From positions 434,001 through 498,000 of the forward strand of contig JAYWIR010000063.1 of assembly GCA_036172245.1 (NCBI GenBank): DNA of 64,000 nucleotides. Direction: 5' to 3'. Both the position numbers and the translations under genes were made by a program. This document shows, in pieces, positions 22,042 to 57,199 of the stretch (its first letter is position 1; each line of letters begins with the position of its first letter). The notes under the pieces were generated by a model. The model saw nothing but the letters and a program-made list of their open reading frames with translations, made no database searches and was not told the DNA's origin. The stretch is from Raillietiella orientalis. Taxonomy: Eukaryota.

Positions 22042-24349
22042 GAGTGGGAAGAGGAGGGGGGAAGCGATGCCTCTGCCACCCAAGGGAAGAAAGTTCCAAC
22101 TGAAGGACAGGAACCTCGATGCACGCCTGAACCTTCATATTACCTACAAACGGGGTGCCCATTTTAACGTGGTCCACATGACATTCATAATGTATCTGAC
22201 GGGTCTCTCTCGGCGCTGGTCCAGAGGAAAGGACAGAGAAAAAAATTGGTCTCAGACGGACAGGGAAGCAGTGCTCACCAAGAAGACAAGATCCAAGGGA
22301 GGTACTCCAACCAGGGTACTGTAGGGAAAAGAGCTTGCCAGGTGGCACATCCTTACACCCCATGCCATGGTACAGAGGGTACGCTTGGATATGCGTGGAA
22401 ACCAGGGGCTCTCTGAAGATCCGAAAGCGCGAGCAGCTTGCCATCCTGCCGGCGAGCACTTTCAAGACCTTCCCTGTTGCACGCAGTGAGAACATCCCGG
22501 ATTGCCGACTGCTTTGCTCTAGAAGAGAGGGAAAACGAAGAGCTGCATTCACTCTGAAGAAGCGGCTGCAAGATGCTGAGAACGGGGTGCGCTATCGGAC
22601 CAGTCTTCCCGGATGGGTGGTGGGTGCCAAAGAAACGACTTATGGAAAGTCGGAGAGGGGAAGTATTTGAAACTGAAGCTTCAGCTCCATCTGCTCCAGC
22701 GTCAGAAGGCCGAGGATGTCGTCCTGACGCAGAGACGTTCATTTCCCGGAGGATGCTGGCTAGTTGGCGTTTCCCAAATGGAGCCATCTCGCGTCCAGCC
22801 ATCTATCCTCAAAACGAGTTCCCACCAAAGAATGGCAGCTCTGTCCTGTTGGTCGCTCCTCGCGGAGTCAGGAGGACGGCTGGACGTGCTCTCGTTGCCT
22901 CCCACCGCTGATCCGGGCGCTTTCTTAATGATGCCTGCCGTCTCTTAGGCTCCGCGATGGCACAAAGAGCTTTCTTCTGGGAGAACGGCTGTCCGAGATG
23001 CGTCGCGTCCCTGCTCGTCGACCTGCAACCGCAGCTCTGAAAGAAATTCTCCTCGCACGACACGTCAAGGCGAGCCTTTGATACGCGCCTCACGTCAGCT
23101 CGGACCGAGCGTTGCTGGCCTCCTTCGCGGGCAGCGATGCCGTGTCTTCTGGTATGCGAGGGAACACTCCAGCAAGCAGTCACTATAAACAACGACTCAG
23201 CCACCAACAACAAATTCCATCGTCTCTCATCGACCGTTTCACCTCCTCCAAAACACTGCTCCCCATACCACCAACTCGACATCGGCAACGCCAATCCCAA
23301 GACACCTTCCCTATATCTCTTCCTCACGCTCGCCATCACGCAGGATGAGCTTTTCAGCAAACTCCACTCCTGAATGCGCACCGACTCTCACGAGTGCAGT
23401 TGTCCTTCCGCACAACACAGTCAAGCACAATCCCGTAGCAACCCCATGCGTCCTGAAGTCTTGAGTCCAACCGGGTCCAGAGCGGGCAATAGTAGCCATG
23501 CATGAAGCACGCGACCCTTGTGGATGCAGTTTCCACGTGTAGGAGGAGATGGAAACGAGCTTCGAGACGGTGGTTGGTGAGTATCGGCGGATGAGTCGAC
23601 CAGCGTTACTCCTCTTCCGACGAACACGAATATGGATCCTGTGCACCAGAGCGGCAGCACGGTACCAAAAATTGCTGACAATGATACCATGTACCTGTGT
23701 CTACTGTAGATTTGCATGTCTGTTGCGATGGCGATGATCACGGCGCTGAGGCGAAATCCGTTCGCAGATGCACGTGTAAACCTACGTCGTATGGAGGAGG
23801 GATCAAAGCATCCATCCTGGTAGGTCCGCTCTCGGGCGGTTGTTGCAGAAATTCTTTCCGGGGGGCCGAAGGTTTCTTTCGTCACTCCATTGAGCGGGAA
23901 TGACACTGGACGCGATTTCGAAACTGGGTGGAATAAAAAACGGCGTCCTGATTACCAGAATGAATGCTGGTTGAGATGCGGAGAATAGCGGCGATCACCA
24001 GGGATCTTCGCAAAAGGAAGGTTCGAGAGGGAAATGTGTCCGCAGAGGACACTAGCGGAAGGTGCATGGATCACATGCTGATTGAGATTCTTGCAAGCTG
24101 CAGGAACAAAATTGCTGGGTCACTTCTTCAGGAGATGCAGCGTCCATCCTTCTCTTGGTCCCTGCCGAGTATGCACGCTTATGGAGCGCACTGCAAAACT
24201 ATGGTGGCAAACGGGGGAATCTGGGGTTGCACCAGCGGGATTCCAGGGCCATATCTGGTGTCCTCGTTAGTAATGGGGTGAGTCTGTGACCAAAACTAAC
24301 TTTGCCAGCTTGCGTTGCAAGCAAGAGCGTTCTGATCTGAGCATGAGCG

Positions 24350-26563
24350 GTGATGATGACGCTGATGTTACATGTAAAGTTCGTTCCTTGCTTGTCTTTT
24401 GCTTCTTTTTTGGATGTTCGCGAGATTTGCGAAAGGACGAGGAACACTCGGAGGGTTCTGGAGTGAGCAGCCCACGCGAACGGAGGAGGATGAAATGGAA
24501 CCTTCCGTTTTCCTCACGGCTTGTCAACGCGAGTCCTCGCCGCAGGAAATTCCCGGAAGATTCCGTGTTCCCGAAGTTGAAGGCGATTGCTTCCGAAGCT
24601 GTAGGACTTGCGATCGTGGGGATCTGAGAAGTGCACATTGGAGTTTGAATCCGGAAGCTGTGGGGAGACAAGCGGTGCGTCGCGAATTCGTTCAGGATGA
24701 ATTTCTTCCGTGCGGTAGGAGGGATCGTCGTGCTCTTTGCATAGGGAAAACCTCCTGTAGATTTCTTGATTTCGCTGTCAGTTCCACTGCTTGCCTATTG
24801 CAAGTTGAAGTTTGGCTTTGTACTTTGTACGTCACTTTCCCCTTACCGTATTCGCAGGGGTGTGGCGGTTTCTGCTGTGTTTCTGCGCAGGCAAGAAAGT
24901 GCCCAACGACCATATCGGAACGCCCCTTGGCTCCAAAAATCGCATTTTTCGAGGAACCCGTATCTTAGACCTTCTTAAGAGTGACGTCAAGCACTTCTGT
25001 TGACACACTGCTGTGCAGGAGGACGCTGTTTTTTGAGATCCATTGGCTGATTGCTCCACCTTCTGTTGCACGAAACGCGCATTCCCATATGCATTCGGTG
25101 AGCACCGGAAAACGAGCAATCCTAGTGGATGACGATGGATTCATACGACGTTTGCAACATGACCTGCAGAGTGTTGTCAGGAGAGACCTAGGGAATGCCC
25201 AGACGAAGAAGAAGGAGCGCAAAATCTCCCACACGGTGGGAAGACTCAAAGGAAGCCCCAAATGGAGAAAAAGAAAAGGAAAGGCTGTGTTGGCTGACGA
25301 AGGAACGATTTTGCCTGGACCTCTTGAACCCGTTTTTGAGTTGACCTAAAACCCGAGTAGACATCTTCGAGAAGATGAGATCTCGACGCCGCTCGGCTCA
25401 TCCCTGCTTGTGGCCCTAGCGAAAGAGAGATCGCTTCCGCAGACGCGCGTCGCTCCTCACATTCGCCCACAGGAATGGACCAGTCCGCGCGTGGTCCGCT
25501 TGGGACGCGATCCTCTCATCCGGACGATACGAAGCTCGCACCCTTCCCGTAACCCAAGGCAACCAAGTGGGCAGCTGAGCGAAGAAGAAAACACGGAAAC
25601 TTGGTTTTCCGTAACGATGGAGAGTGTGGGGAAGTTGCTGGAGACCCTCTGCCTGCGGGAGGACGAACCCATGGATGGGAAGTCTTCCGGATGCAGTGCA
25701 GCAGAAGAAGGAGGACTTGGAGCCACTGCCGCTTCGCGGACTCTGGCGGTGGTGCCCCTGTCCCCAGCTCCAGGAGGAGACGGCCAAGGGAAAATCAAGG
25801 GAAGCACTCGTTCGGGGGGAAATCGTTGCTCCTCCTTCCAGGACCGGTGTCCAAGCGACGGCGACGCTATCGGCACCGTCTCCTGCTCCCACGGACGCAG
25901 ACCGACCGGCCGAAGGGGATTCTGGTTCGGAGGGCCCGCCGCAGACCCCCTTCGTCCTGAATCAGTACCGTGGGGAGCGGAAGGCGACCTTCCCGGAGAG
26001 AGGGTGGCCGCAAGTGAAGCTGCTGGGAATTTCCAGTTGCCCGCCGTAAGAGAAGCCTTCCCGCGTCTGAGCACCTGGGGCCAGGGAAAGAGAATGGAGC
26101 ATCGCCCCAAAGGGTCGTGGAACCGGAGACCATGCAGCCACTGCAGGAATCAAGGAAGCGCAGCTGCTGCAGTGTCGAGCTGCTCGTCCATGAGCCACTT
26201 CCCGGCCATGGGGTCGGCGAGGCCGGGAGCTCCTGTGCGTCCAGGAAACAACAGGTAAGCGGAACCCTTCTTTGAGATCCGATTGTATTTTCCAGTTGGC
26301 AGGGAGACTCACGGGCACGATGCCAGTCCGTGAGCGGGGGAGGCCGCCGAAACATCTTGGACGCCCTTTGAGTCTCAGAAGCCATGGGCTTCCTCTCCTC
26401 TGCAGTCCTCAGCTCCTCACCCTACAGGTCTCTGGTGCATCGGCAGGTACGACGAGACGTCGCGTCACAGGTTCGACACCTGGAAGTGAGCGCTACAGGC
26501 GAATCTCGGAGAAAGCGTCTCTGAAGACCAGCAGCGAACTGGAGTGGGCGTGTCCAGCTGCGG
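24350..26563 (+). repeat. Left arm of ~2.2 kb inverted duplication (dead LINE ORF1 and endonuclease start)
   Basis: Reverse complement of 41395-43618. Identical ORFs (282, 217, 158, 141, 119 aa) appear mirrored in the ORF track. Contains frameshifted GATTGTATTTTCCAGTTGGCAGGGAGACTCAC (DCIF-LQETH-like). The LINE linker KLRQRMVATCIRYSS follows at ~26625-26670. Confidence 0.97.
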
Positions 26564-27013
26564 ACCTGGGATCCTGGAAATGGAGAGGTACTACAATACC
26601 TTGGAATACCAAAAAAGAAGCTTGTGAAGTTAAGACAACGGATGGTAGCCACCTGCATCCGGTATTCAAGTAGCATATGCAATCCACGTAGGAAGGAAAT
26701 CGGAGCCCAACCCGATGATCTGGATAATGTTCGCCCTCCGGAAGAAAGCACCGAAGAACCGTGAAAGACTGGGAAAACAATAATCGCGGAAGATTCTCAA
26801 ACAACGTGGATTCCCGTCTTCTTCTTCGACATCTTCGAGTGTGTGGCCCATACACCCTGCGGGAAAGCGCTGCAACCTCCACAAGAAGGAAGTGGTACCG
26901 AGTGTATGCCTACAATCCTATCCTTTTACAAGGTGTCTAGTTAACGCTGTTTTGCGAACTACTTGACAAGTAGATAATTTTGCGTCTAATGCAAAAACTC
27001 TAAGGAAAAAAAG

Positions 27014-27450
27014 ATTCCTTAACATGACAGTTGCTCTGCTCACCCGAGAGTCTGCTCAAAACGCATCCAGTAATGGCATTGCAGCTGCCCAGATTTTGAA
27101 ATTTTTCCATATCCATGCCCATCCGGTATGCTTGAAATCGGATTGTGTCGTCCCAACAACTATTAGTGACCAGATCCAACTGTGGCAGTTGGAAAGAGAG
27201 AGGTAAGCAAGTGCACGACTGTACATAGATTCTTAACCACTCTTTTAGAATTGTGTGGCAGGAGGGTGTCCTGTATAATCAGTTCTTGTCACAAGGTGAC
27301 TTTCAATTGCTTTGTAGTTACAGTAGAGATGCTGGTTTGCTCATCTGGAGTAACAGTCAGAAACGAACCATGGTTGTAACGAAAAATGGTCATGACACTG
27401 TCTGGAAAAAGCTGGAAAAGATATGGAACAAAGGATGTGTGTACACATGA
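27014..27450 (+). pseudogene. GTF2H4: TFIIH subunit p52 (Tfb2): last two exons only, 5' part not found
   Basis: Exons 27014-27202 and 27249-27450, separated by a 46-nt GTAAG..TTTTAG intron. Translation: RFLNMTVALLTRES..GIAAAQILKFFHIHAHP..VPTTISDQIQLWQLERER..EGVLYNQFLSQGDF..KRTMVVT. AATAAA at 27546. Homology is clear; pseudogene status is not. Confidence 0.7.
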
Positions 27451-27582
27451 CTTTCAAAGGTTCTTAAAGAGAAAAAGAATGAGTACGCATATGACAGGAT
27501 TGCCGATTTGTGTCTTCTCTGGCACAACACTTTCAAACAGTGTCCAATAAAGCTGACTCTGATTCATTTTCGGTTTTGAACG

Positions 27583-30109
27583 TTATGTTTTTACTATGTG
27601 TTTTCTAGCATCCAAAGGTTTCAAACTACATAGATTCAGAAATCTCTTCACCATGGTTGTTTTCCACTGCATCAGCTGACTTTTGCGGACCTTCCCAGAC
27701 CACTGCAAATTCCTCCTGATGGTTTGTCCCTGATAGTCACAAAACATGCTAACACATTCCACCAGTTGCTGTAAGAAGGTATCAGGAATCTCATGCTTTT
27801 GAAACACTGGACAATGCAATTTGTGGATAGTTGCACCATTCTTCCAAGGAGAACATTCTTTTACTTGTAATAATTTCAACATGGAGTGCCGACATTGCAA
27901 CAGTTTATCGGTGGGCTGAAAGTGTTCACACACAACATAAACTTCCGAATTTCCTGGTTTACTGCTTGCTGGTTTAAACACTTGCACTTTGTGGAAAGAG
28001 CAAACCAACAAATACATTAAGCATATTGTTTGACACTCGAATGCAGTAAATATTTTCAGAACAAAACATCCTCCCGCTTTAAGTAAATGTATTGCCAAAA
28101 GGGTTTCACAGAATTGTAGCTCATATGTCATTGATTCTTGATTCCCAGGATTTGAACTGCAGTCAATGCTCCCATCTGCAGTAACCTAGGAAAGCCACAC
28201 ACAATACGCAACAGGTGATTCAAGCAAAGTATACCAAGTTTATCTCGCCTATTTCGGAGAGCTGTCCCATGAGTTCCATGAGGTTGGACGGAATTGTAAT
28301 GTCACCTGTTTCATCTGCTCCAAACAACCAGTGATGCCATGTTTTCGCCATAAACCAGCTATCTGATGCAATGCAACTCTCAGTACCTCCTTGATAGAAG
28401 GGATTCAAGCTGGAAGCTCTCCAAATCCACTTGTAGGGAAAAAAATTGCCAAATTATTTTGGAAGAAGCACTTTTGCCTTTACATCCAGTTCTGAACAGA
28501 TATTTGCAAAGTAAGCTGTGTGTGCATTGTGATGAGCTTCAACCTATTTGAATCCTCAAGATATTTGCCAGGAGAGTGTGTTTTGAAAACTTAACCTGAT
28601 GCTGTTGACTGATCAATTTTCATATGAACAGATTAATCAGCAATTCATCAACCAATCTGGTCACTTTCGATTAAAAGGAAAACCTTGCTGTTTCCCTTAT
28701 GGCTATCAACATCGAAGTTCCAATTTTCATATTTTCAAAACTTTGCATCAATCAAGGAAGAAACAACTACATTCCTTGGTGCATAAAACACCTCTAAGGA
28801 TGATTTTACATATTAATTTTAGATACTTATGAAAAGGTGCCAAATTTACAGAATTGTAAGGTGTATCACACAGCATTAATACAAGCAATCCTCATTACTA
28901 TCTCAGTCTACTTATGGAGTAATTTCCTGTACAAATCTCCATGCATTTTCCTTCAATGAATTACATTTCATGTCCGTAGTAACCCCCTATTTCGAATACT
29001 GAGAATTTGACACGAAGTATTTAGTTAAAATAACTCACACCTGTAAAATCCAAATCCTTGCAAGGACATTTGAATGGGAAATATGACAAGGACTAGGATT
29101 CTCAACTACATGCAGATATTGCTACTTTATAAACACAGTTTATAGATACATTAATATAAAGTTTCAAAGTGCAGCTTGTAACTTGAAGCTGTCATAATTC
29201 AGCAGCCAAAAGAGCCCAACTAAGGGTGCTGCTGATCTCATAGTAAGCAATTGTTTTCACAATATAATTTACATTCGAACAAATTAACCAAGCACCTAAT
29301 ATAAAGCATTCAAACAGCAACAAAATCAAATTGCCACTATTGAATAGAAATCCATAAAACCATGTAATCAGGACAGTAAAACTGTAAATGGAATTGCAAA
29401 TGTACAGTAATTACAAGAATGCCTTCGATAAAATAAAAATAAACATACTTTGATGTTTGGGCAACATGTTTTCATATGATGGTTCAGAGCTGTAATGAAA
29501 GCACCAGGAGCTTCACATAAATGCACAGAACAGAATTCGTCTGATGATTCCAAATTATTAAGAATTGGCAAGCGATTTATAATTTCGGTAAACTTACACC
29601 AAGCCTGTAACATAGAATTTTGGAAAGCATGAATACTTCAGAGTAACAGTGGAAATATTGTAACAGACACACCATTTATCATTCCTTTCATAGAAACTTC
29701 ACACACTTACAAGAATCATCAAGGATATTATTGCCTTGCAAATGTAGATGAAAAGTCCATGAAGAAATGAACAGGAAAAACAAAATTCATTCACTACCTG
29801 AGTGCACAATTCAGCACCAAATTCTTGTTTACAAATCTGAATAAGAAGTTTGCTGAAGTGAAGATTATTGGTATGCACATGCCACTTTTCAATATTCAAA
29901 TTGCTTAGATCAGCCTTTACAGCATTTAACTCACTTTTCAACTCCTCAAATACTGGAATCTGAAGTAATGGTTTAATGCATGCATAAGATATCCATGAGC
30001 ATACCTTCCACACACTGTTTGCATTACACTGTGGCAAATTCCAATCTTCTTTCGGGCAATCAAATACATATAGTTTGTTAAATGCATCAGTAACATGAAA
30101 ATATTTCAT
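27583..30109 (-). CDS. CMTR2: Cap-specific mRNA 2'-O-methyltransferase 2 (FtsJ/RrmJ fold), 5 exons, ~406 aa
   Basis: Exons 30109-30005, 29959-29798, 29604-29449, 28429-28235 and 28185-27583, all phase 0. Motifs: ELCTQAWCKF, HLCEAPGAFI, SLNPFY, GADETGDI, VTADGSIDC, GGCFVLKIFT, KPASSKPGNSEVY (K-D-K-E tetrad). Confidence 0.93.
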
Positions 30110-30249
30110 GATTCAACACATCTGGATATGGCAAATGAGGTAAAAATGAAAGATGACTACAAATCAGAAAACAGATTGCTCTCAGATGGTTTATTTCCAA
30201 GTCATATCATTAATTTATGCAAAGAATGTCATGATTGAAAAAACAAAGC

Positions 30250-30289
30250 ATCCAACATAACTTCTTCCACTTTCAAGTTATGTTTTCAT
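30250..30289 (-). promoter_or_regulatory. SECIS element in the SELENOF 3' UTR
   Basis: mRNA sense AUGAA-AACAUAACUU-GAAAGUGGAAG-AAGUUAUGUU-GGAU: AUGA/GA core, perfect 10-bp helix II and apical AAA, ~45 nt after the stop codon. Confidence 0.88.
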
Positions 30290-30335
30290 AATTTAATTTC
30301 CTATCATAACACAGTTCACAAACCTAAAAAGAACT

Positions 30336-31205
30336 TCAATTTTCCAAATGTACTGACAAAAACTCTTTTATCGAATCAGTGTCCCATTTGTCAATTGGAA
30401 GAGTGTCTTTCACCTCACCAGCATCATTGACAAGCTTAAGAATGGGACTGGAACCACGTTTATATGTTACTGCTAAATTTTTGAATTCTTTATGGTGCTT
30501 TCCTTTCACAAAGGCTGCAAAAATAAATTGCGATAAGTAAGGTGCATGTAATAAATCACGCCTTTCAACCAAAGCAAACATTCTGTAACTGCAAGCCCTA
30601 AATTTCGTACACATGCTGCACACTTGTGATCAAACAAACGATGCAGTACACATTAAAACAAAGCATGCAAACGTCTTGTTTTACGTAACCAACAGAGCAA
30701 GCAAAAGCTAACCCACAGAAGCATTCCAAAAAGATCATACCTCCCACATGTGGGTATGCCCTCAACTTTCAGGAACACACTTCAAGAATTGCCCTTGGAA
30801 ACCTCTCAGGTGTTTTTCTCTTATCTTCCTTCTGACAGCATTCCAGACACCGAGGTCTACAATTCAGAACATTGTCATGAAGAGGCTTGGAACCGCGTTT
30901 GTTACACTGGACTCAATTGATGACGAATGAGGACGATGATCAAGTTCAAAATGAAATACTTGCCCAAGTTCTTCCAAGTTCAGATGCTCCAACACGCTGC
31001 ATGATGAACACAACAGATTCGCTTTGTTAAAACCAACCTGCCAACACTCATCGACAGTCAAAGACGAAATGGCCCTCTCAATCTTAGAAAGGAAGGGGGG
31101 GGGAGGGCAGGGGCAATCGCCAGAATATCAGAGGGAAGGGAAAGTGCTACTTACTATATTGGAGAGTACTGCTGAAAATGCCCAGACCGACACCGTGAGC
31201 CACAT
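30336..31205 (-). CDS. SELENOF: Selenoprotein F (Sep15), 4 exons, ~154 aa, Sec at UGA 30771-30769
   Basis: Exons 31205-31155, 31082-30964, 30856-30741 and 30514-30336. Signal peptide, then NLLCSSC..CLECCQ, AILEVCS-U(TGA)-KLRAYPHVGAFV, GSSPILKL, IDKWDTDSIKEFL. SECIS downstream. Confidence 0.95.
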
Positions 31206-33099
31206 CTCCCTGCCACCTCAGCGCTCGTCCTCATCGCCTCGGCAGAGATTGCCGTGAGCGGTGACCTCCAGGACCGGCGACCTCTTTCTTTGCTCCCCAA
31301 CTTCCACAAAATCCACAACGGTTTCTAACATCGTACTCTAATTCGGGGACAAAAAATCCATCATCTACTTATACTATGGGATATCTATAAGCAACTGAAA
31401 TCGGTATTCACACGGTATTTTGTTGGATGGCCAACTTTCAAATTTGAATATCCCAATTACATGTGCACCAGTAAAAGGTCAGAAGACAACGAATTTTAGA
31501 TGTTCTGGCTTTCCAGAACAAGAAGAAAGAGTTTTATCGAATTCTTCCATTCAACTTCACTTCTAAGGTGCTCAGGGCTGCTGACAATGTCAAGTGGGTT
31601 ATGCCATTTTATGCTTTCTACCAGATAAAGTCAACCCAAATAGGATTGTAATGGACATATCTGGGAAACGAACACTCTATCCACAGAATGGCCTGATCTT
31701 GATGGAGAATAGCGTCCCTGCTCTGACTATTGTCACCTGTAATGTCACAGACGTACAGTACACGTCATTCTGTCCTCTAAATCAGAGCACAGAAGAAAGT
31801 AGCCATTCCTCATTTTGTATGGAAATACGCGGAGAGAGTTGTCTTCTTCGATATTCTAGCAAAAAGACGTTTGTTTGTTTTTTTTGTATTTCTCAATGAA
31901 TTTTTCAGCAAATAGCAAATTTAGCATCCCCAATTCTCTCATGTTCTTAAATGTGTCTGAATGCAAATTTCCTGAGATCGCGTCAGAGAAGATATTCTTC
32001 TTGACTCACTTCAGATCTCCTAGCCCACGAAAAAAGTAGACAATCTTTTTTGTTGAGCAAATCCATTATTCGGTGAATACTGGGACATTCGATAGACATC
32101 CGGAGAATCAAAAAGCAAAAGATCATTTCTTTTTTCCAGTGTTTTGGCGCTTTCCGGGAAATTTTTCAGCTTCCATCGCCTTGGTTTGTGTTCCTATCGT
32201 TTCCACCTAGCTGTTGGCTATCCTGAGTCCGCCCGAGCAACCGATTCCGCGTTCTCCTCTCATGGTTGCCGCGTGACAGCATAGAGATCAAAATCCCATC
32301 CCAGCGAGGAGACAAGGTAATCAAAATTACCTCATCCCAGCTTTCGTTGTCCAAAACCCTTTGCGGTCCAAAACCTCTTCACGCAGTATCAGTGCACTCG
32401 GAGGGGCTGACTGCTTTTCTCGAAAGTGTGCTTTCACCGAATGCACTCTTCCCACCTGCACACCAATGAAGAGACACTGGAATGTACCAGGGTTTCACAA
32501 ATGAATCAGCATCCATGAGCAGCATTTGAATTCCCCATTCCTTTTATGTGTCTCCTTTGAAATATTTTGCAATTTCGTTTTTCTCATTTTTGTTCACCTG
32601 TAAATACAAACACTCTTGTAAAGATGGTTTTGAAAGCATTCTTCTAATCGATCGAGCACACGTTTTATTTATCAAATTTCCCAACTGATTTCCTGTCCTC
32701 TTGATGTTTGTTGAGAGCCAATGTAACGCTTTGGCACTTTAGTTGCTGTTCTTGATATTTTTGCTCAGGAGCAATGTGCCAGCAGTGATGTTTTGGTTTC
32801 CTGAAATTTCCCTGTTTTTGTTTTCTTTATCACGACTTCCGTGATCTCACACTTCCTCTGTTTTCATCATCTCCCCCCGTTTATCGTGACTTCAGGAGCA
32901 TTTTCCTGCTGAGGTTGGTTTTTTAACCGCCTAGCGTTCCAAAGATGAATATTTCACCTTTGGCACCATCGTCGTTGGTTTCGGTTTCATCTCCTCTGTT
33001 GCATTGGGGAAGATGAGCAGAAACCATTAGGCACAGCTCATGGCTAGGAGGTTCCTTTGCTTTCTTCCGGTTTCCATGTTTCTACACTGGAAACCTCGC

Positions 33100-34450
33100 C
33101 AATGGTTATGGACAGGAATGGACTACCGTAAAGGTCTCAGTGCCGGAGATACGACAAAACCTTTTCTCGTTGGAGATGACAGAGAATGACGAAAGTTTCT
33201 AGAAAGATGAAACGCACGTTCCATATGGCAGCATGCGGCAGCCGTTTTACGATGGCTGCATCTGGTTTGCTGCCTCATCAAGAAAGGGTGTCCCCGAACC
33301 GACAAGAACTGCCGACGTAGGCGCAGCAAACAGTTGGAATGTGTGCGTGCAATGAACGGAAAGCATTTCCAAGAAGCATGTCCACCGAGCCCAGGCATGA
33401 TCTTGCTAAAATGATGGCAGGACTTTATGGCTTTGCATGTCCGAATTTTAGTTCACGTACGAGACGAAAGAAACTCAAGGATGCGCTTCCCTATGAGATT
33501 CTCCAGACAGCAAGCATGCACAGACCAGAAAACACGAAGGCAAACTGAATGCCAAGTTCGGCATGAAAACCGGGTATTTCTCAAGTGCCAACAACATGTT
33601 TTCCTCAACGGATTTCGGCTAGAAATTCTGGTAGTCCCCTTCTTCGTTCCGTAACTCCTTCTCCCCAGCTTCGATGCGATGTATGAACCAAACGATAATT
33701 AAGAATTGGCACATCTGAAATGCCTGGAAAAAATGAGACAACACGAAGGGAACGCGCTGGGTGCAAGCAGAAATGAGGTCTTCATTGCCCCGCTGACACC
33801 CCGATGCCTCCAAGGGCGCCGTAGGGGCGCAAAAGATGGGAGCCTTACGGTCTTCCTGTGGGGGCAGTTGGCGTCTCTCGAGCTGCTGTGGGTCAGCGCT
33901 TGCCGGCTGTGCTGTCGTATTAGGAATCGGTATGCTGCTGCCATGGCAGCATACCGATTCTTTTGGAACACCGTGTTTCCTTTCTTCCCATCCAGTTCTT
34001 TGCGCCCAGTGGGTCACCCACGCCCTTCGGCGATGTCAGCATCAGCAACGGGCTGCGCAGCTGGACACGCCTTCACGATGCTCCCCGAGGCCGCGCAGCC
34101 CCTCGTTTTCGAATCGTGGAAGCAAAAAAAAGTGTTCTTCCTTGCTCGAGTGGGAGGCCGAGGAACGACGGCGGTGTCTCAGGCATTCGGGATGGCCATT
34201 CTTTCTTTCTCACGTCCGGACAAATGGAGAGTCGGTCACCCGTGGTGTTCTCGGAAGCAACGGATGTGCACTTTCGTTCCCTGGAGGCCGGTGATTTTTT
34301 TTCGTGCAGCCTTTCTGCCAACCTTTGATCATAATTTTCGTCACAGTTTCGCGAAAGCTTTGCTTGCAAAATCGTGTGCAACTTTTCCGCTCCACATTTG
34401 CCGTGTGTGTTCCCCAAAGTTGGTTGATAGGTGTTGGCGGTATTCATTTA
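33100..34450 (+). mobile_element. Degenerate LINE 3' portion
   Basis: GC-rich block with AGLYGFACPNF (GGLGLP-like) near 33415-33450 and HPWC..EATDVHF (zf-RVT-like) near 34235-34275. Boundaries approximate. Confidence 0.3.
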
Positions 34451-34591
34451 TAGTGTGGAATGGGAATTTTGTGACTCCTGTGCTTATCACTGTAATTTGT
34501 ACATGCGTGTTCCTACTTCTCCAGATTTAAATACAGTTGGAGTTCCAGTTTGACCGTTTGTTTTTCAAGTCCATTCATTGAACTCGGAAAA

Positions 34592-35207
34592 ATGTCATCA
34601 AGAAAGACTGCTACACGACGGTTGACCACCAAGAAAAGAGCCCAGAGAGCCTCTTCTAATGTGTTTGCAATGTTCGATCAAGCACAAATTCAGGAATTCA
34701 AAGAAGCCTTCAACATGATTGATCAAAACCGGGATGGTTTCATTGACAAAGAAGATCTCAATGATATGCTTGCTTCCTTGGGTCTGCAAACTTTTATACA
34801 GAGAAATTTGAAAGTAAAATGTTTTAGGTAAAAATCCAACGGATGAATATCTTGATGCTATGATTAACGAAGCACCAGGATCCATTAATTTTACAATGTT
34901 TGTAACTATGTTTGGAGACCGCTTGAAAGGCACTGATCCGGAAGAAGTTATTAAGAATGCATTTGCATGCTTTGATGAAGACAATACTGGATCTATAAGC
35001 GAAGAAAAATTGCGAGAATTGCTGACAACCATGGGAGATCGATTTTCTGATGAAGATGTAGGTAGAATTGGGATATGTTGATATTGCTACCATCATGTCT
35101 AGGTTGATGAAATGCTTCGTGAAGCACCAGTGAAAAACGGAATTTTCGATTATTTAGAATTCATTCGTATCCTTAAGCATGGGGCTGTGGATAAAGATGA
35201 GCCATGA
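34592..35207 (+). CDS. mlc-4: Non-muscle myosin II regulatory light chain (mlc-4/sqh-type), 3 exons, 174 aa
   Basis: Exons 34592-34781, 34828-35057 and 35103-35207. Translation: [69 protein letters not shown]. Confidence 0.95.
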
Positions 35208-37445
35208 TTATTAAGAACTTGGATTTGGAATTTCACCTGAGGATGAGTAATGACAGTGGGTCTGCTAGCTTTGGAGGGATTGCTTTCCTAATTCATCTTA
35301 TGGGTCTGATCCCTAGAAAACAAGTGCTAATACCTTTAATAAATAAGATTTTTATTATATTTCTGTTTGAAAGCCATCTTAAATTATATATCACTTCATA
35401 AGTAGGTAGTTATGTCCTTTGTAATTTTCACTGATGCAGAAGGTCAGTGAGCATAAAGGAATCTTTGATTTGTTATTCCACTTCACCTTGTCGCAGTTTG
35501 AAGTTGTCTACATTCAGAACGTTCAGATGGTTCTTCTTGGAAATTTGAAAAGGAAAGAAGAAGAAGAAAAAAAAAAGCTGAAATCCACATTGTGTTCCTT
35601 GGATTTGAATTTCCTTGCATATTTAAGTTGAAGTATTCCTTGGGTTTGATAAGGTTTATTTCAAGATTCTTTGTTTGTGTTATAACATTCATCTTCCAAA
35701 ATGTGATTCCAATAGTACAGGAATGAATAAAATGACATACTTGCAATTGTTTTGAAATTAAATGGTGTGCTGAAATGAAGTATACAATTTTTAATGAACC
35801 CTGAAATTTTATGCCATTTTGAAATGCAAGGTAAAGTTGTTCATAGTATTCTTGCCTGAACTCTGGATGGTAGTGCTGCCAAACAGGTGTAAAGAAAGTT
35901 GTTTATACTCTTTACTTTGTTCCACTTTCTTCTTTAAACCCTGCTAATGGTCAGAATCACAAATTTTGCCAAGCATTTGATTCAAATCATGAACATTATC
36001 AGGAATCTAATTCAATATTATGAAAATTTTTATAATAATCTACTCAAGTGGATGAATGAAATCTTTGGTAAGGTTATGACTAAGAACACATTTGATTAAC
36101 ATGAGACATGCACGTTTGGAAAGCAAGTTTCAAGCATGAAAGGTATTAACGTGTTTATAGATTCGGCTAAGCAAAAAGTAACTGGGAAACCAAATGACAT
36201 TGCATTTTAAGGGACTCATCAGGAAAACCAAATGATGTTTGAAACAAATTATGGCACATGTGCCATGATTTGTTTCTGTGCCATCTGAATATGTGCTTGG
36301 GATTATTTAACTGCAGCTACCAGTTTAAACATCTCGCCAAAAATGTTCATTGTAAAGGATCTGCACAAGAAATATCCAAACAATCCTTTTATGTTATAGA
36401 ACACTAGCAAGGTTTCTTCCCATATGAAAGTTTTGAACTGTCCTTTTAATAATCCTGATTAATCAGTGCAAATAAAATATTTTGAAGATCTGTCAAATAG
36501 CTGTAAATTACCGACGTGAAAACTTTCCCAGCGGGCTTGGGATGGTCTGTTTTTTTACATTTATCTGGAAAGTGAAGAAAAATTGATGACAATTGCAAAC
36601 TATTCTTGATTTTCGGAGGACCTTGCTAAGCGGCATGCAAACCGAATAAATATCAACGTCCTTGGATACCAAAAATTAGAATTTCATGCCAGCTTTCCAT
36701 ACCCTTCAACTGCGGAAAGCCTTGGTATGATGGAAAGCCTACCGACGATCAATGGAGAAACCCGCGCAAGGAGAGGAAAAAAAGTGCTTTGAAAAATGTC
36801 GCTTTCAATTCGATATTTCGGGCGTTTCATCAAAAGGTACTCGGGCGAGTGTGGCGGTTTTCCAAGTTGTTTTTCTCGTTCAATTGCACCAGTCTTCGGT
36901 GCCAGGTTCAGGTTCCTCCTTCAGCAGTGGCGCAGCAAGCCTGAAAGAAGGCTCACCACCGCGTGCCAGGTGGTGAGCGCGCCTGCGCCATGGGATGCGT
37001 GGGACAGCTCACCCTACTCTCATTTACACGGCGAGGGCCCGCTGAGGCGAGCGTCCAAGAACACCCAAGAAGCGAACACCGACACTCTCTTCGAGGCGCG
37101 ACACTTCGTACATCCAGCCGCGAGGCGCTTTGCTCAGGAAGCCGTTGGGGCTGCCTGCGCACCAACGGCTGAGATGAAATCTCAGCTCCACCCACAGGTC
37201 TCCCCTTATTTCTGAGGATTCTGGTGTCTTTAGGGGAACCAGCTGCATCTGCTCGAACTGAAGCCTCGACTCCAGGAAAGTGGTTTCTCCCTTTTCCCCG
37301 GGCGGCCTTTCCTTCCAGATGAGTCTTCCTGAAACTACGCGCTGCCGTTCTTTCATTCTTCGAGAGTCAGATCATCGACCCCAGACAAATGTATTCATTC
37401 ACACCAGGATGCACGGTTTCGGGAGAATCAGAAGTGGTTCCTGGT

Positions 37446-38549
37446 TCAGGCGTATTTCGTCTCCAACTCATCTCGAAGGGCACTCAGTTCCTCATCGGTT
37501 ACGGTCATCACTGCGGGACTCTCCCAGCGGAGGCTGGCGAACGACTTGCACAGTCTTTCCCACTCCACGCTGTAATCGTTCTTCGACTGCACATTCTTCC
37601 TGGAAAAGTACGGCGACTGAGCCAATTTGGAACGGGGATGTACGCAGTAGATGTAGCATCCCAGCCTTCCCATGAAGGAGTTTGCAGTGCTGTCCTGCAA
37701 TTTCGATCTTCTCTTGCCGGTGAGTTGCCGGGCTCGCAGGTGGAAGGAAGGCCGATCACTCCGTATCCGCTTCAGTACTTTGGGCAATCTTCTCATGTTC
37801 TTGAGGTTGGGGCAGTAGCTGGCGAGTGGAGAGTGGAGTAGCATTTTGTATGCCTCGAAGCACACGGAGTGCGCATGTGTGCCAGCGGGATCCGTTGCAA
37901 ACAGGAAGTTCGTTCTAAAAGGCAGCGACGAAGTTACACGCTCTCGTCCATACACCGGGAAAGTGTTTGGCAGATTTGTATATCCAGCTTGCGATAATAT
38001 GTAAATAGTACTCGAGTAATGTCCCAGTTCAAAAGCAACCCTGAGTAGACTGTCGACGTCAGCCGAAGGCCAGTACTTCTTTATGAATTGTCTCACGTAT
38101 CCGCTCCCTTTTCCTGCCTGTTCGACATGGCAGTTCGTTGCCCAGAAAGATACTTTGGTAGCGATCATCAGGTGTGTAGCTCTCTCGCACGTCCCTGGAT
38201 CCAGTATGTCTTCGAGTGTCTTTGCGTCTTGGCGTGAGAGCTGCTTGGAGCCCCTCACATATTTCCAATCGCCGTCGGGTACTAAACTGGATCTGAACTT
38301 CCTGGTTCGCACAAACCCATACAGAAGTATTGCGTAGACTCCGTTAATGAAGACGGTCCGAGCGACACCTGTGTATTTTGTTCTGTACAGTGCCCATAGC
38401 AACGTATGCGAAAACATTTTCGATTGCGATGCCTTTTCCTTCCTCATTATTGGTAGTTTGTCTTCTTCATAGAGCTCAGGGTCGAGGGCGGTCGGTTTAG
38501 CGAGCTCAGTCACGTGGGCTAGGCAGGGATCACGTAAGATGAGTGACAT
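37446..38549 (-). CDS. Intronless 367-aa ORF resembling a qinvirus-like (negative-strand RNA virus) nucleoprotein; candidate endogenous viral element
   Basis: Longest uninterrupted ORF in the window, with globular composition. Motif order ATKVSFWATNCH, GHYSST, PAGT, FHLRARQLTG, GRLGCYI..P.SKLAQSP, DY..EWE matches my recollection of Qinviridae segment-2 proteins. Not verified by search. Confidence 0.6.
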   Translation of the reverse strand: MSLILRDPCLAHVTELAKPTALDPELYEEDKLPIMRKEKASQSKMFSHTLLWALYRTKYTGVARTVFINGVYAILLYGFVRTRKFRSSLVPDGDWKYVRGSKQLSRQDAKTLEDILDPGTCERATHLMIATKVSFWATNCHVEQAGKGSGYVRQFIKKYWPSADVDSLLRVAFELGHYSSTIYILSQAGYTNLPNTFPVYGRERVTSSLPFRTNFLFATDPAGTHAHSVCFEAYKMLLHSPLASYCPNLKNMRRLPKVLKRIRSDRPSFHLRARQLTGKRRSKLQDSTANSFMGRLGCYIYCVHPRSKLAQSPYFSRKNVQSKNDYSVEWERLCKSFASLRWESPAVMTVTDEELSALRDELETKYA

Positions 38550-39899
38550 CTGTCTGGATCACTGAAACGACACCAAGTTCCCTGAATCTGCAGTTGGCCA
38601 TGAAAGGGATGAACAAATTCGAAATCCGCAAAGATAAGAGGTACACAATTTCCGAAGGTCCGATGCTCCCATATCATTGGGTTCACGTCACATAACTTCC
38701 GTGCAACCAGAAAACGGCGGTAGGATTCCAACAGGGACGCTGAGTGTAGCTAAGGAAGAAGTTGATTACCCACTGCTGACGAGTACCATAAGAGAAAGTG
38801 GCACGAAACAGCGATAACCCAGAAAATAAAAACTCCATGCGCACAAATGGACCGCGGATACGAAGCATCTGGTTGTGGCCTTCTGGGAATCCGTTGCTGG
38901 CCGGTCGGGTCATGGGGGTTCCTGGAAGACTTATGCGAGTTTTGTTTCTTACGTCCATACACGGAAATTTTTGGAAAACAAGCCGTTTTGGACATCCTCC
39001 CTCGCTCTGGGATTTCGAATTCCATCACAGTCTTTACGACCAACCGATTTCAAAGCTTGCGGCATGACAAATGACCGGACGAAATGAAGACGATGGCTGC
39101 ACCGCTGGACCAGCCGTCATTGCGCTGCCGAAAGTTTCCCCCGGAAACACCACTTTCAAGAGTGACACGTGAGCGTTTGGGTGCCACACGACTCGTTCCC
39201 CGCAGGGCACTTTTCTCCAAAGCTCGATTCGCCAACAAAGAATGAAGTGGCACTGAAACTGACCGGCAGCTTAGCAGAAGCGCCCACGTGCGTGGACTGT
39301 TCAACGAAAGGAGGAAAGGACAGCAGTTCAACCACGGGAAAATGAGAAATTCCTCGCAAGTGAAATTCCACGCTTCAAGATCATATTAGGCGGAGTCAGC
39401 TTTAAAAAGAAGTGCCTGTCGCGTACTCCTTCTCTTCCGTCACGGGCGACGGACTCGAAGACGTGAGAAGTATGACCGGGAATCGACGTTGTTTCGTCGC
39501 TTGCACGTTGCGCCACGCGAGGCTCACTCCTCCACATGCCGGCCACCGACTGTGTCTTTGCTGAGGGTCCATCCCATGTGGAACTGCAGCTGCGGTGTTC
39601 GTCAAAAGTTGCCGACCTTAGTCCTCCCGGTACGGTCGCTCAGAACGTAGTCGAGAGCGAGTTTACCAGCATCAGGTCTCTGTGTCGAACACGAAAGGAG
39701 AGCCGGGCATTCTTTTCATCCCGTGGGAACTACCAGCGCGACGCAGGACCTACTGGTTAATGCGGAACTTATCTGAGGAGCAACGGTCGCTCCTCATGTC
39801 CAGTCATGAAGGGCAGGCAAAGGCTAAAGGACGGACGATTGAGGTGGCGTGAAACCTCCCCACGATGACGGCACAGTAGCAGCAGACTACGTCGGATTC

Positions 39900-41394
39900 G
39901 CTCGCCTGAACACTGACACACACCCAGCGTTTCTTCATCTTTGTGTACGGCTCGACATCTCTTATAAAACCCGAGATTTGGAAACGCAGAGCCTCCCCTT
40001 GAAAAGGCATTTCCTTGCTCGAATAGGAGCGCATGTTCAGGCGGCAGACCACGAAGCGGCTGGAAGCCTTGCGTTCAGCAACCATCTCTTCGCGAAGAGC
40101 AAAGCTCCAACATTCTTCGCTACCTTCGAGACCCAAGGCATCGGGGTATTGAAGAAGAATGGAATGAGCCTGCCCCGAAATCGGCACATCCGTGGCGCGC
40201 AAAGACCCTGCTTGTATTCCCTGGACAACATACACACCTTGGTCATCTCCAGCCAGTTGTGACAGTCCCGTTTCGTCATATGAGCGTCACTTGTGGGATA
40301 TCGTCGTCGACAACTGGAAGTGGGTTCAATGGTGGCGACGGCAACACCGCCCACCAACCAACACGTGAGGCGGTACAGCTGAATTCGTTTAAGTAGGCAG
40401 CCCTGCAAAACGCGAGACCACTTCTCGCATGTCAAGGTTGCAGGGCTTTCCTCCAGGGTGTATGGGAAGCGTTATTTCCGTTCCAGAACGTTCCGAAATT
40501 CATGCACGCGATTAGGATTGGAAGTGGCTGAATCGGAATGCACCACCTCAAGTACTCTGACCACGTGGATCAGCTTGCTGAGGAACATGACACCCCAACG
40601 AACAGAATGCTGCTGTTAAATGGAGTTACAGTTCACGATGAGTTAAGTCTCAACTCGCGCGTTCTGGCAGAAGCGCGGATGGGCGGTTGCACTTTCCGTC
40701 ATCGGTTTCGATGAGCACCGAATCGACAGTTCAGGTCTGGTGGAGACAAAGCTTGAAATCCCAAACACCGCCGATTTCGGTGCCCGAGCATGAGAAAGAA
40801 GAGCTTACCGCTGCACATCCGTGTCAACTTCCGCCAGACATGCACCCTCCCCCCGGACATTGGCTCTTCCTTTCCCGCGCTCTGTCGCGAGGGTGCAGTA
40901 TATCGATCGGCCGGCGCCAGCAAAATCCTGGCGGTCCACACCGCCTCCCACGGATGAAGACCCGCCACTCAAACGTGGTATTTCGTTACCTCTGCGAAGA
41001 AGAGGGTACCACGGTGAAGATGTCCCCCGCACGTTCACTCGAGTGTGCCTTGACCCCTGACCACAAGCGGTGAGCGGTTCCTCACTGAACTCCGTTCGCC
41101 AGAAGCCGGTTTTATTTTTGCAGCCCGGAGAAAAGGAGTACGTTGGAAGTCGCCAAGATAAAACGTCCAGTAAGACACCACTACCAAGTGCCCAGGGCAC
41201 CAGCTGCATTCCCAGGGGACAACCCACGGAAGCAAATCATGGAGCCTGATTCTTCTCTTTATCTTGGACTGTTGACTGTTACGGAAATCCCAGCGACTCT
41301 GATAGTCATCGAAATGGACTGCGTGCCTGTTTCCTAGCAGAGAGTGCTCGCACGTTGGAACTGCGTCAGCATCCCAAGCTACTGGAGATCTCAC
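39900..41394 (-). mobile_element. Continuation of the degenerate LINE beyond the right repeat arm (endonuclease to RT)
   Basis: In the expected order: YLGDF (~41150), LHPWEAVWT..RSIY (~40900-40960), EKWSRVLQGCL (~40400), VQGIQAGSL and LLQYPDAL (RT QG and YADD-like motifs, ~40135-40230). Confidence 0.5.
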
Positions 41395-43618
41395 CCGCAG
41401 CTGGACACGCCCACTCCAGTTCGCTGCTGGTCTTCAGAGACGCTTTCTCCGAGATTCGCCTGTAGCGCTCACTTCCAGGTGTCGAACCTGTGACGCGACG
41501 TCTCGTCGCACGTACGGTTGCCATGCCGATGCACCAGAGACCTGTAGGGTGAGGAGCTGAGGACTGCAGAGGAGAGGAAGCCCATGGCTTCTGAGACTCA
41601 AAGGGCGTCCAAGATGCTTCGGCGGCCTCCCCCGCTCACGGACTGGCATCGTGCCCGTGAGTCTCCCTGCCAACTGGAAAATACAATCGGATCTCAAAGA
41701 AGGGTTCCGCTTACCTGTTGTTTCCTGGACGCACAGGAGCTCCCGGCCTCGCCGACCCCATGGCCGGGAAGTGGCTCATGGACGAGCAGCTCGACACTGC
41801 AGCAGCTGCGCTTCCTTGATTCCTGCAGTGGCTGCATGGTCTCCGGTTCCACGACCCTTTGGGGCGATGCTCCATTCTCTTTCCCTGGCCCCAGGTGCTC
41901 AGACGCGGGAAGGCTTCTCTTACGGCGGGCAACTGGAAATTCCCAGCAGCTTCACTTGCGGCCACCCTCTCTCCGGGAAGGTCGCCTTCCGCTCCCCACG
42001 GTACTGATTCAGGACGAAGGGGGTCTGCGGCGGGCCCTCCGAACCAGAATCCCCTTCGGCCGGTCGGTCTGCGTCCGTGGGAGCAGGAGACGGTGCCGAT
42101 AGCGTCGCCGTCGCTTGGACACCGGTCCTGGAAGGAGGAGCAACGATTTCCCCCCGAACGAGTGCTTCCCTTGATTTTCCCTTGGCCGTCTCCTCCTGGA
42201 GCTGGGGACAGGGGCACCACCGCCAGAGTCCGCGAAGCGGCAGTGGCTCCAAGTCCTCCTTCTTCTGCTGCACTGCATCCGGAAGACTTCCCATCCATGG
42301 GTTCGTCCTCCCGCAGGCAGAGGGTCTCCAGCAACTTCCCCACACTCTCCATCGTTACGGAAAACCAAGTTTCCGTGTTTTCTTCTTCGCTCAGCTGCCC
42401 ACTTGGTTGCCTTGGGTTACGGGAAGGGTGCGAGCTTCGTATCGTCCGGATGAGAGGATCGCGTCCCAAGCGGACCACGCGCGGACTGGTCCATTCCTGT
42501 GGGCGAATGTGAGGAGCGACGCGCGTCTGCGGAAGCGATCTCTCTTTCGCTAGGGCCACAAGCAGGGATGAGCCGAGCGGCGTCGAGATCTCATCTTCTC
42601 GAAGATGTCTACTCGGGTTTTAGGTCAACTCAAAAACGGGTTCAAGAGGTCCAGGCAAAATCGTTCCTTCGTCAGCCAACACAGCCTTTCCTTTTCTTTT
42701 TCTCCATTTGGGGCTTCCTTTGAGTCTTCCCACCGTGTGGGAGATTTTGCGCTCCTTCTTCTTCGTCTGGGCATTCCCTAGGTCTCTCCTGACAACACTC
42801 TGCAGGTCATGTTGCAAACGTCGTATGAATCCTCGTCATCCACTAGGATTGCTCGTTTTCCGGTGCTCACCGAATGCATATGGGAATGCGCGTTTCGTGC
42901 AACAGAAGGTGGAGCAATCAGCCAATGGATCTCAAAAAACAGCGTCCTCCTGCACAGCAGTGTGTCAACAGAAGTGCTTGACGTCACTCTTAAGAAGGTC
43001 TAAGATACGGGTTCCTCGAAAAATGCGATTTTTGGAGCCAAGGGGCGTTCCGATATGGTCGTTGGGCACTTTCTTGCCTGCGCAGAAACACAGCAGAAAC
43101 CGCCACACCCCTGCGAATACGGTAAGGGGAAAGTGACGTACAAAGTACAAAGCCAAACTTCAACTTGCAATAGGCAAGCAGTGGAACTGACAGCGAAATC
43201 AAGAAATCTACAGGAGGTTTTCCCTATGCAAAGAGCACGACGATCCCTCCTACCGCACGGAAGAAATTCATCCTGAACGAATTCGCGACGCACCGCTTGT
43301 CTCCCCACAGCTTCCGGATTCAAACTCCAATGTGCACTTCTCAGATCCCCACGATCGCAAGTCCTACAGCTTCGGAAGCAATCGCCTTCAACTTCGGGAA
43401 CACGGAATCTTCCGGGAATTTCCTGCGGCGAGGACTCGCGTTGACAAGCCGTGAGGAAAACGGAAGGTTCCATTTCATCCTCCTCCGTTCGCGTGGGCTG
43501 CTCACTCCAGAACCCTCCGAGTGTTCCTCGTCCTTTCGCAAATCTCGCGAACATCCAAAAAAAAAGCAAAAGACAAGCAAGGAACGAACTTTACATGTAT
43601 CATCAGCGTCATCATCAC
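41395..43618 (-). repeat. Right arm of ~2.2 kb inverted duplication
   Basis: Reverse complement of 24350-26563, with a few substitutions, a 1-bp indel near 42833 and a small indel near 41510-41525. Confidence 0.97.
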
Positions 43619-49500: not shown

Positions 49501-49700
49501 GGCACTATGCAAACAATTCTGCAAGCACCATACAAAGTACAGGAATTCGGAGTTCACTGAGGACCACAACGTTGGGGATACGAGTCATAAAAGGCAATGT
49601 TTTACGGAAAGCCTTCAAACGAGCACATTACAAACCGTTATGCGTGTACACTCCACTATGCGTACTATTGCGACGCTAAAAGAAGAATTACTCTCTTCTT
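46587..49700 (+). mobile_element. Degenerate L1/Tx1 element: ORF1 with tandem zinc knuckles, then endonuclease and linker remnants
   Basis: GQPTYCGQCRTFGQLKKRCPDAECPTCGEKGHTIVMCP (two CCHC knuckles) at 47600-47715, then a basic tail, LVGGRHSVTLD (GGDFN-like) near 48520 and EWALCKQFCKHHTK near 49500. The 272-aa ORF at 46587 may be the ORF1 N-terminus. Confidence 0.65.
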
Positions 49701-57100: not shown

Positions 57101-57199
57101 GGCGGTGGACCGACACTACATTTGCACTGCATAGCTCTCCCCAGCTGCCGCTTGCAGGCGTTACCAGCACTCGTCGAGCGCACTCGGAAACGTTGAAAT

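What the first reader, a model, noticed from the sequence alone, without database searches (positions are those of the whole stretch)
24350..43618. Near-identical 2.2 kb inverted repeats enclosing a 14.8 kb cassette of host genes plus the viral-like ORF
Seen: 24350-26563 and 41395-43618 are almost perfect reverse complements. Between them lie the GTF2H4 fragment, CMTR2, SELENOF, mlc-4 and the N-like ORF. Both arms share the same inactivating frameshifts, so the identity post-dates decay of the LINE. Inference: a DNA-level duplication or conversion rather than two retrotranspositions. The structure could be an invertible segment, an inversion scar or a composite element carrying host genes. I saw no transposase or target-site duplication.
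Basis: partly seen in the sequence, partly recalled or inferred. Interest (0 to 1): 0.75.

Follow-up and report, generated by a model that had tools for sequence, protein, structure and literature searches.

The report
Inverted duplication around a gene block
Two nearly identical mirror-image copies of 2.2 kb of apparently non-coding DNA bracket three ordinary genes, a broken gene and a fossil virus gene in an invertebrate genome; this looks like an ordinary rearrangement scar in a much-duplicated region, not a jumping element, and nothing shows that the block flips.

Summary
The repeat is real: 24347-26563 and 41395-43621 are 99.2% identical. The arms are low-copy: one more near-identical partial copy lies 103 kb upstream. 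They show no LINE, transposase or RNA-family homology, so 'decayed LINE with shared frameshifts' is unsupported. There is no target-site duplication, and three other copies of the gene block lack the arms: not a composite element. The junctions are polar. The left arm continues its outer flank (old paralog), the right arm its inner flank (third copy); the other two junctions cut older repeats. This fits DNA-level inverted copying in a segmental-duplication cluster, with patchy homogenisation. Two ~80% inverted remnants show older exchange between the block ends. Inside: a truncated GTF2H4, intact CMTR2, SELENOF and myosin light chain, and a qinvirus-like nucleoprotein ORF. Flipping would cut no gene. 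No sequencing runs were listed, so an artefact is not excluded. Unchecked earlier scan notes describe similar inverted duplications elsewhere in this genome.

The parts
24347..26563 (+). Left arm of the inverted repeat; low-copy, no detectable coding or RNA-family homology
   Evidence: identity; copy number; no homology; no private change against the other two copies over 25080-26563
41395..43621 (-). Right arm; carries three private events (1-nt deletion, one substitution, an 11-nt insertion with two adjacent substitutions)
22956..24385 (+). Left outer flank that runs 39 bp into the left arm in an old paralog on contig C43 (67-71%): the outer-left junction is old
   Evidence: exact 16-mer 24344-24359 spans the junction in C43
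26564..26800 (+). Fragment of a high-copy dispersed repeat, cut at both ends, abutting the inner end of the left arm (NeSL/R2-type 3' end is my label from recall)
   Evidence: 33 of 41 matches fall here; alignment of 8 copies shows the family continuing on both sides
26799..26849 (-). Old inverted remnant of 39444-39494 (43 identities, 6 mismatches, 4 gap columns)
   Evidence: 0 of 300 shuffles reach the score; C73 keeps 745 bp of this segment at the same place
26847..26903 (-). Old inverted remnant of 40410-40466 (45 of 57), joined to the cut GTF2H4 exon
   Evidence: 0 of 300 shuffles; same junction on C73
26896..27447 (+). 3' remnant of GTF2H4 (Tfb2/p52): 5' exons absent, in-frame stop, 7-nt deletion; pseudogene
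27583..30109 (-). CMTR2, 4 exons, 421 codons, GT-AG introns, no internal stop; the only frame-intact copy among the 5 loci compared
30336..31205 (-). SELENOF (Sep15), 4 exons, one in-frame TGA in a CxU-type motif, one GC-AG intron
34592..35207 (+). EF-hand myosin regulatory light chain, 3 exons, 174 codons, intact
   Evidence: family name from recall
37446..38558 (-). Open 370-codon frame of a qinvirus-like nucleoprotein (endogenous viral element); one of a family of at least 51 matches in this genome
38356..41394 (.). Inner flank of the right arm, duplicated together with most of the arm in the third copy (G000:C63:355384-359895, 97.8%, patchy)
43624..44331 (+). Decayed LINE ORF2 piece (region downstream of RT) that begins 2 bp outside the right arm; relatives continue upstream

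Best explanation
A genuine, recent inverted segmental duplication made at DNA level inside a cluster of repeatedly duplicated and reshuffled gene blocks. Steps: (1) shown: the GTF2H4-CMTR2-SELENOF-light chain block exists in several copies on contigs C63, C73, C89 (pieces on C43), and this copy is cut inside GTF2H4. (2) shown: the left end of the block holds two short, ~80% identical inverted pieces of the right end, so the two ends were joined or copied in inverted orientation long ago. (3) inferred: break repair by template switching later placed the 2.2-kb segment at both ends; it is native to the left outer flank and contiguous with the right inner flank, and the two new junctions cut older repeats. 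(4) inferred: ectopic gene conversion among the three copies, or simply a very recent copy event, explains the 99.2% identity. Consequence (inferred from known inverted-repeat biology): crossing over between the arms could flip the 14.8-kb block without cutting any gene. It has no enzyme, ends or target duplication of its own, does not move as a unit, and has no evident function.
For: Arms low-copy: 6 matches genome-wide, 3 near-identical, all on C63. Outer-left junction crossed by a 67-71% paralog; inner-right junction shared with the third copy; inner-left and outer-right junctions truncate older repeats. Third copy versus right side: 54 internal differences in 4286 columns, strongly clumped (dispersion 3.63; 0 of 10,000 random placements reach it). 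The block is itself a mosaic of paralog identities, from about 91% to 100% against C89 per 500 bp. Block copies on C89 and C73 have no arm. In 614,510 held bases, 6 of 8 same-contig pairs of >=500 bp and >=97% are inverted (a biased sample). Young inverted duplicates and duplication-flanked inversions are described (PMC2728529, PMC1885836; passages).
Against: The two new junctions (26563|26564 and 43621|43622) occur once only in the held sequence, so nothing independent confirms them. Patchy identity can also come from polishing or haplotype mixing in an assembly. The direction and order of events rest on paralogs inside one assembly; no outgroup genome is held. A 5'-truncated LINE insertion followed by deletion would give the same outer-right junction. 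Conversion is inferred from the third copy, not from the two arms themselves.
Confidence: 0.72

Rival explanations
1. One-step inversion by staggered breaks: the block was inverted once, the overhang at one breakpoint was filled in and so duplicated, and the other break fell in GTF2H4.
For: The junction polarity (left arm native outside, right arm contiguous inside) is what this model predicts (model from passages of PMC1885836). C73 shows right-end sequence joined directly to the cut GTF2H4 exon.
Against: It predicts the 5' part of GTF2H4 beyond the right arm; a LINE piece lies there and no Tfb2 match other than the remnant is on C63. The GTF2H4 cut is older (remnants ~80%, C73 copy 95-96%) than the arm identity (99.2%), so extra steps are needed.
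Confidence: 0.12
2. Assembly or amplification artefact: one arm was copied by a chimeric read, a haplotype switch or a mis-join.
For: No reads could be examined. Near-identical inverted pairs are frequent in the neighbouring contigs and in unchecked scan notes. Amplified DNA yields inverted chimeras and false duplications in long-read assemblies (bioRxiv 10.64898/2026.06.11.730069, passages); how this genome was prepared is unknown to me. Two junctions are unique.
Against: The arms differ by 6 substitutions, a 1-nt and an 11-nt indel outside homopolymers, and the third copy sides with the left arm at all three right-arm events. A single fold-back chimera keeps the outer and inner junction of the same arm native; here the independently supported junctions belong to different arms. 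The inverted link between the block ends is also seen on another contig.
Confidence: 0.11
3. Composite or foldback-type DNA transposon whose long terminal inverted repeats carry host genes and the viral ORF as cargo.
For: Long near-perfect terminal inverted repeats around unrelated genes; the block occurs at several loci.
Against: No TSD; no tandem sub-repeats; no transposase hit; the arm is not a dispersed family; the other block copies lack the arms; the left outer end is contiguous with its flank in an old paralog, so it is not an element terminus.
Confidence: 0.03
4. Two independent insertions of one young retrotransposon in opposite orientation.
For: The region is rich in LINE debris.
Against: No RT or endonuclease homology in the arm; only 3 near-identical copies, with different end points; no TSD.
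Confidence: 0.02

Closest known systems
Inverted duplications at inversion breakpoints, staggered-break model (Ranz et al. 2007, PMC1885836; passages read)
   Same: Low-copy, non-transposon sequence duplicated in inverted orientation at the two ends of a segment; size (their largest about 1.9 kb) is close to 2.2 kb; broken partial gene copies at breakpoints; breakpoint reuse.
   Different: Their inversions are between species and polarised with outgroups, with duplicates about 88% identical. Here the segment is 14.8 kb, the arms are 99.2% identical, the predicted other half of GTF2H4 is missing, and no inversion is demonstrated.
Inverted-repeat-flanked recurrent polymorphic inversions (Aguado et al. 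2014, PMC3961182; passages read)
   Same: High-identity inverted repeats around a segment in the same size range (5.1-226 kb there); exchange inside the repeats can leave genes intact; gene conversion between repeats is discussed.
   Different: Both orientations were genotyped there; here only one orientation in one assembly is known.
Young inverted gene duplicates of Caenorhabditis elegans (as summarised in PMC2728529; passages read)
   Same: Newborn duplicates often nearby and inverted, median span 1.4 kb, many partial or chimeric.
   Different: The duplicated arm here carries no recognisable gene and the copies are 14.8 kb apart.
Foldback / Mutator-type elements with long composite TIRs (Tm1, PMC3169594, passages read; Drosophila FB-flanked composite elements recalled, no call)
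   Same: Long terminal inverted repeats around other sequence.
   Different: No tandem sub-repeats, no 8-10 bp TSD, no dispersed family, no transposase, and one end is contiguous with its flank in an old paralog.
Qinvirus small-segment nucleoprotein and endogenous copies of it
   Same: The ORF at 37446-38558 has the fold (TM 0.80, E 3e-18 to Sanxia qinvirus-like virus 1 nucleoprotein) and about 30% identity to a Wuhan insect virus 15 protein.
   Different: It is a passenger: one of at least 51 matches in this genome, and its presence inside the arms is incidental.

Membership tests
Inverted segmental duplication (low-copy repeat) | At least 1 kb, at least 90% identity, inverted, same chromosome | tested here: met
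   2217/2227 bp, 99.19%, 14.8 kb apart
Inverted segmental duplication (low-copy repeat) | Low copy number, not a dispersed transposon family | tested here: met
   6 matches, 3 near-identical, all on C63 (lower bound); 7 protein-level matches at the same 6 places
Inverted segmental duplication (low-copy repeat) | Both copies present in the organism (read support) | not testable with these tools
   No run was listed
Staggered-break inversion scar | One copy keeps the outer ancestral junction, the other the inner one | tested here: met
   inner support is a 98% copy, so it shows shared recent origin, not deep ancestry
Staggered-break inversion scar | The sequence cut at the second break is found in two halves at the two ends | tested here: not met
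   5' GTF2H4 is not beyond the right arm or elsewhere on C63; the LINE cut at 43622 has no other half at the inner-left junction
Staggered-break inversion scar | Outgroup shows the non-inverted order | not testable with these tools
   No relatives held; paralog C89 differs in orientation of 45773-50041 but lacks the arm
Recurrently invertible (flip-flop) segment | Near-identical inverted repeats with no gene cut by exchange | tested here: met
   All genes lie within 26896-38558; arms without recognisable genes
Recurrently invertible (flip-flop) segment | Both orientations observed in reads or individuals | not testable with these tools
Foldback / composite TIR transposon | Target-site duplication | tested here: not met
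Foldback / composite TIR transposon | TIRs with tandem sub-repeats | tested here: not met
   No tandem array in either arm
Foldback / composite TIR transposon | Same termini at several unrelated loci; cargo moves with both arms | tested here: not met
Foldback / composite TIR transposon | Transposase inside or recognisable in trans | tested here: inconclusive
   None inside; a transposase elsewhere was not sought
LINE (non-LTR retrotransposon) copy as the arm | ORF2 endonuclease/RT homology | tested here: not met
   Pfam none; 0 of 30 intact RT ORFs; best hit within shuffle range. Only clades with intact ORF2 among the 39 queries were tested; ORF1 and UTR sequence would be missed
Qinvirus-like nucleoprotein EVE (the internal ORF) | Sequence and fold similarity to qinvirus small-segment protein | tested here: met
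Qinvirus-like nucleoprotein EVE (the internal ORF) | Expression or small-RNA production | not testable with these tools

The most novel reading that the evidence does not exclude
The block is a standing flip-flop segment whose ends have exchanged sequence repeatedly: three age layers of inverted homology (about 80% remnants, a 95% piece kept on C73, 99.2% arms) would record inverted repeats being built, eroded and renewed at the same two ends, around the only frame-intact CMTR2 copy found and an open qinvirus-like nucleoprotein frame, with both orientations segregating today.
Probability: 0.2. Interest if true: 0.45.

Novelty: new member of a known kind. Interest (0 to 1): 0.24.

Why it matters
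Modestly. If real, it is one more example of inverted duplication and homogenisation in a duplication cluster, with unusually legible junctions. It warns against reading long inverted repeats around genes as composite transposons. It would matter more if both orientations segregate (an invertebrate case of recurrent inversion at renewed repeats), or if the reciprocal losses among block copies (intact CMTR2 here, complete GTF2H4 elsewhere) are what keeps the copies in the genome.

Tried and rejected
Public runs for 36000-44500: none was listed, so no reads were laid; this is no evidence either way. LINE origin of the arm: Pfam on 138 ORFs and on six frames read through stops, tblastn with 9 and then 30 retroelement ORFs and a profile. 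One weak hit of one query at the arm's outer end (E 5e-4 on a 322-bp subject) was rejected because 10 of 25 shuffled arms scored as high. Exon-like piece at 25137 (its two old paralogs are preceded by a TGCAG word): no third-position bias (12/7/6 and 6/4/5 differences by codon position) and no intact relative; not called a gene. Templated origin of the 11-nt insertion: no local match longer than 8 nt. Rfam: 0 matches in 19000-46000. For the viral ORF the word-indexed protein search, the ESM Atlas, Pfam and the PDB sequence search found nothing; the exhaustive search and the fold search did; Foldseek against PDB gave only weak nucleoprotein matches (best E 0.03). Earlier-finding look-ups near this place and by sequence were empty. 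The host taxon was not determined: CMTR2 is 35-47% identical to many animals.
Full report
OBSERVATION. The window holds one long inverted pair, 24347-26563 and 41395-43621, 99.19% identical over 2228 columns with 6 mismatches and 2 gaps; the gaps are 1 and 11 nt. Every other self-match is at most 79 bp. The spacer is 14,831 bp.

WHAT LIES INSIDE. Pfam finds Tfb2 and Tfb2_C, FtsJ, Sep15_SelM and EF-hand domains (138 ORFs, of which 25 of the 48 ORFs listed for 27000-36600). Spliced models are open for CMTR2 (421 codons; named relatives), SELENOF (one in-frame TGA) and an EF-hand light chain (174 codons; the family name is from recall and 'mlc-4' orthology was not tested). GTF2H4 is a 3' remnant with an in-frame stop. 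The 370-codon ORF has 236 relatives at E<=0.001, one named as a Wuhan insect virus 15 protein (3 of 10 looked-up proteins bore a name). Its model (mean pLDDT 90) matches qinvirus nucleoproteins (TM 0.80, E 3e-18). This genome has at least 51 matches to it, so it is a passenger.

WHAT THE ARMS ARE. A genome search with the arm gives 6 matches: the two arms, a third copy 103 kb upstream on the same contig, and three short 71-75% paralogs on C73 and C43 (a lower bound). No Pfam family, Rfam family or tandem array lies in them. None of 30 intact RT ORFs of this genome hits the arm at E<=1e-3, while 10 of 30 hit a decayed LINE in the left flank used as a control. The best tblastn score of 39 retroelement queries on the arm is reached by 10 of 25 shuffled arms.

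JUNCTIONS. Outer left: a 67-71% paralog on C43 runs from 22956 through the junction to 24385, with an exact 16-mer across it, so the arm is native to its left flank. Inner right: the third copy (C63:355384-359895) carries the arm from 25080 on and continues through 41394 to 38356. Inner left: the arm abuts a piece of a high-copy repeat (33 of 41 matches) that is cut at both ends relative to 8 aligned copies. Outer right: a decayed LINE ORF2 piece starts 2 bp outside the arm, whereas its relatives share several hundred more bases upstream. There is no target-site duplication. One arm is thus anchored outside and the other inside, which is the pattern of a DNA-level inverted copy and not of an element with two termini. 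Against this: the two new junctions occur once only in the 614,510 bases held, and the inner support is a recent copy.

HOMOGENISATION. Over 25080-26563 the left arm has no private change, the right arm has three events, and the third copy has five plus nine in its first 54 bp. Against the right side, the third copy's 54 internal differences are clumped (dispersion 3.63; 0 of 10,000 random placements; longest clean run 806 bp). The gene block is likewise a mosaic: about 91-100% to C89 and 70-99% to one C73 copy per 500 bp. This fits ectopic conversion or serial copying; polishing or haplotype mixing could mimic it.

THE BLOCK ELSEWHERE. C89 holds 26896-37623 (89-97%), and two places on C73 hold 26801-33013 and 26896-28797; none has an arm beside it (90 kb of C89 and 159 kb of C73 examined, not the whole contigs). 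GTF2H4 is complete on C89 and one C73 copy and cut at the same place in the window and the other C73 copy. CMTR2 is frame-intact only in the window among 5 loci compared. At the cut, C73 carries 745 bp of the block's right end (39444-40188) inverted, at 95%; the window keeps two remnants, 26799-26849 and 26847-26903, about 80% identical to 39444-39494 and 40410-40466 (0 of 300 shuffles each). Inverted contact between the two ends is thus older than the present arms. Such structures are common here: 6 of 8 same-contig pairs of >=500 bp and >=97% in the held sequence are inverted (stretches chosen for being paralogous, so not a genome-wide rate). Unchecked scan notes list others on other pieces of this genome.

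MECHANISM. Most likely (0.72): repair by template switching in a duplication cluster placed one low-copy segment at both ends of a duplicated, truncated gene block, and conversion or recency keeps the copies alike. Shown: copy number, junction polarity, paralogy, clumped differences, older remnants. Inferred: the repair route, the order of events, conversion. A one-step staggered-break inversion (0.12) fits the polarity but not the missing 5' GTF2H4 or the age gap. An artefact (0.11) remains open because no run was listed and amplified DNA is known to give inverted chimeras; the non-homopolymer differences and cross-contig support argue against it. A composite element (0.03) and twin retrotransposition (0.02) fail their defining tests. 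Crossing over between the arms could flip the block without cutting a gene; nothing here shows that it does.

KNOWN KINDS AND PAPERS. Passages were read, by term search, of PMC1885836, PMC3961182, PMC3169594, PMC2728529 and bioRxiv 10.64898/2026.06.11.730069; other papers were seen only as search listings. No supplements were opened. The Drosophila FB composite elements and the NeSL/R2 label are from recall. I make no claim that this locus is absent from print; no search for it was possible without the organism's name.

VERDICT. A real-looking, ordinary inverted segmental duplication: a new member of a known kind, interest 0.24. The boldest reading not excluded, a flip-flop block with repeatedly renewed arms, has probability about 0.2 and would deserve 0.45.

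Noticed in passing
window 27583-30109 versus G000:C89:18000-23000, C73:92200-95200, C73:348700-351900: Reciprocal loss among block copies: CMTR2 is frame-intact only in the window among 5 loci compared, GTF2H4 is complete only on C89 and one C73 copy. The copies may be kept because each holds a different working gene.
   Followed up: partly
L050, L051, L053, L055, L056, L058, L060, L061, L067: 9 of 20 nucleoprotein-like loci (three are one array on C22) have 3' pieces of one LINE family on the same strand within 1.5 kb, often on both sides; the same family lies at window 43624-44331, but the window's own ORF has none within 1.5 kb. Earlier scan notes describe such arrays.
   Followed up: partly
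window 37446-38558; G000:C89:30085-30261; G000:C63:359691-359897: Both recent duplicates of this region end inside the nucleoprotein-like ORF: C89 keeps only its 3' end, the third arm copy only its 5' end; the window holds the whole open frame.
   Followed up: partly
window 45773-50041 versus G000:C89:34479-38811: A 4.3-kb paralog (93.6%) lies beyond the block on C89 in the opposite orientation relative to the block, so a further inversion separates the two copies.
   Followed up: no
G000:C43:1253607-1255939 (L083, L084) and its inverted twin at C43:715417-717757: An 83% piece of a CMTR2 exon (window 28236-28486) sits between two arm-related segments, so arm-like sequence and the gene block have been neighbours and mixed for a long time.
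   Followed up: partly
G000:C73:61348-62195 and 90681-91528: Another near-perfect inverted repeat (848 bp, 99.9%, 28 kb apart) ends 14 bp before the C73 copy of the block's cut end.
   Followed up: no
window 30336-31205: SELENOF has an in-frame TGA and one GC-AG intron; its 3' region runs to within about 230 bp of the CMTR2 start codon on the same strand. No SECIS was found at Rfam's cut-off.
   Followed up: no
window 51388-63613 versus G000:C63:548076-560807: A 12-kb older direct duplicate (77-88%) lies about 63 kb downstream.
   Followed up: no
L069, L073, L076, L084: Long uninterrupted ankyrin-repeat frames (596-813 codons) lie near the paralogous blocks on C73 and C43.
   Followed up: no
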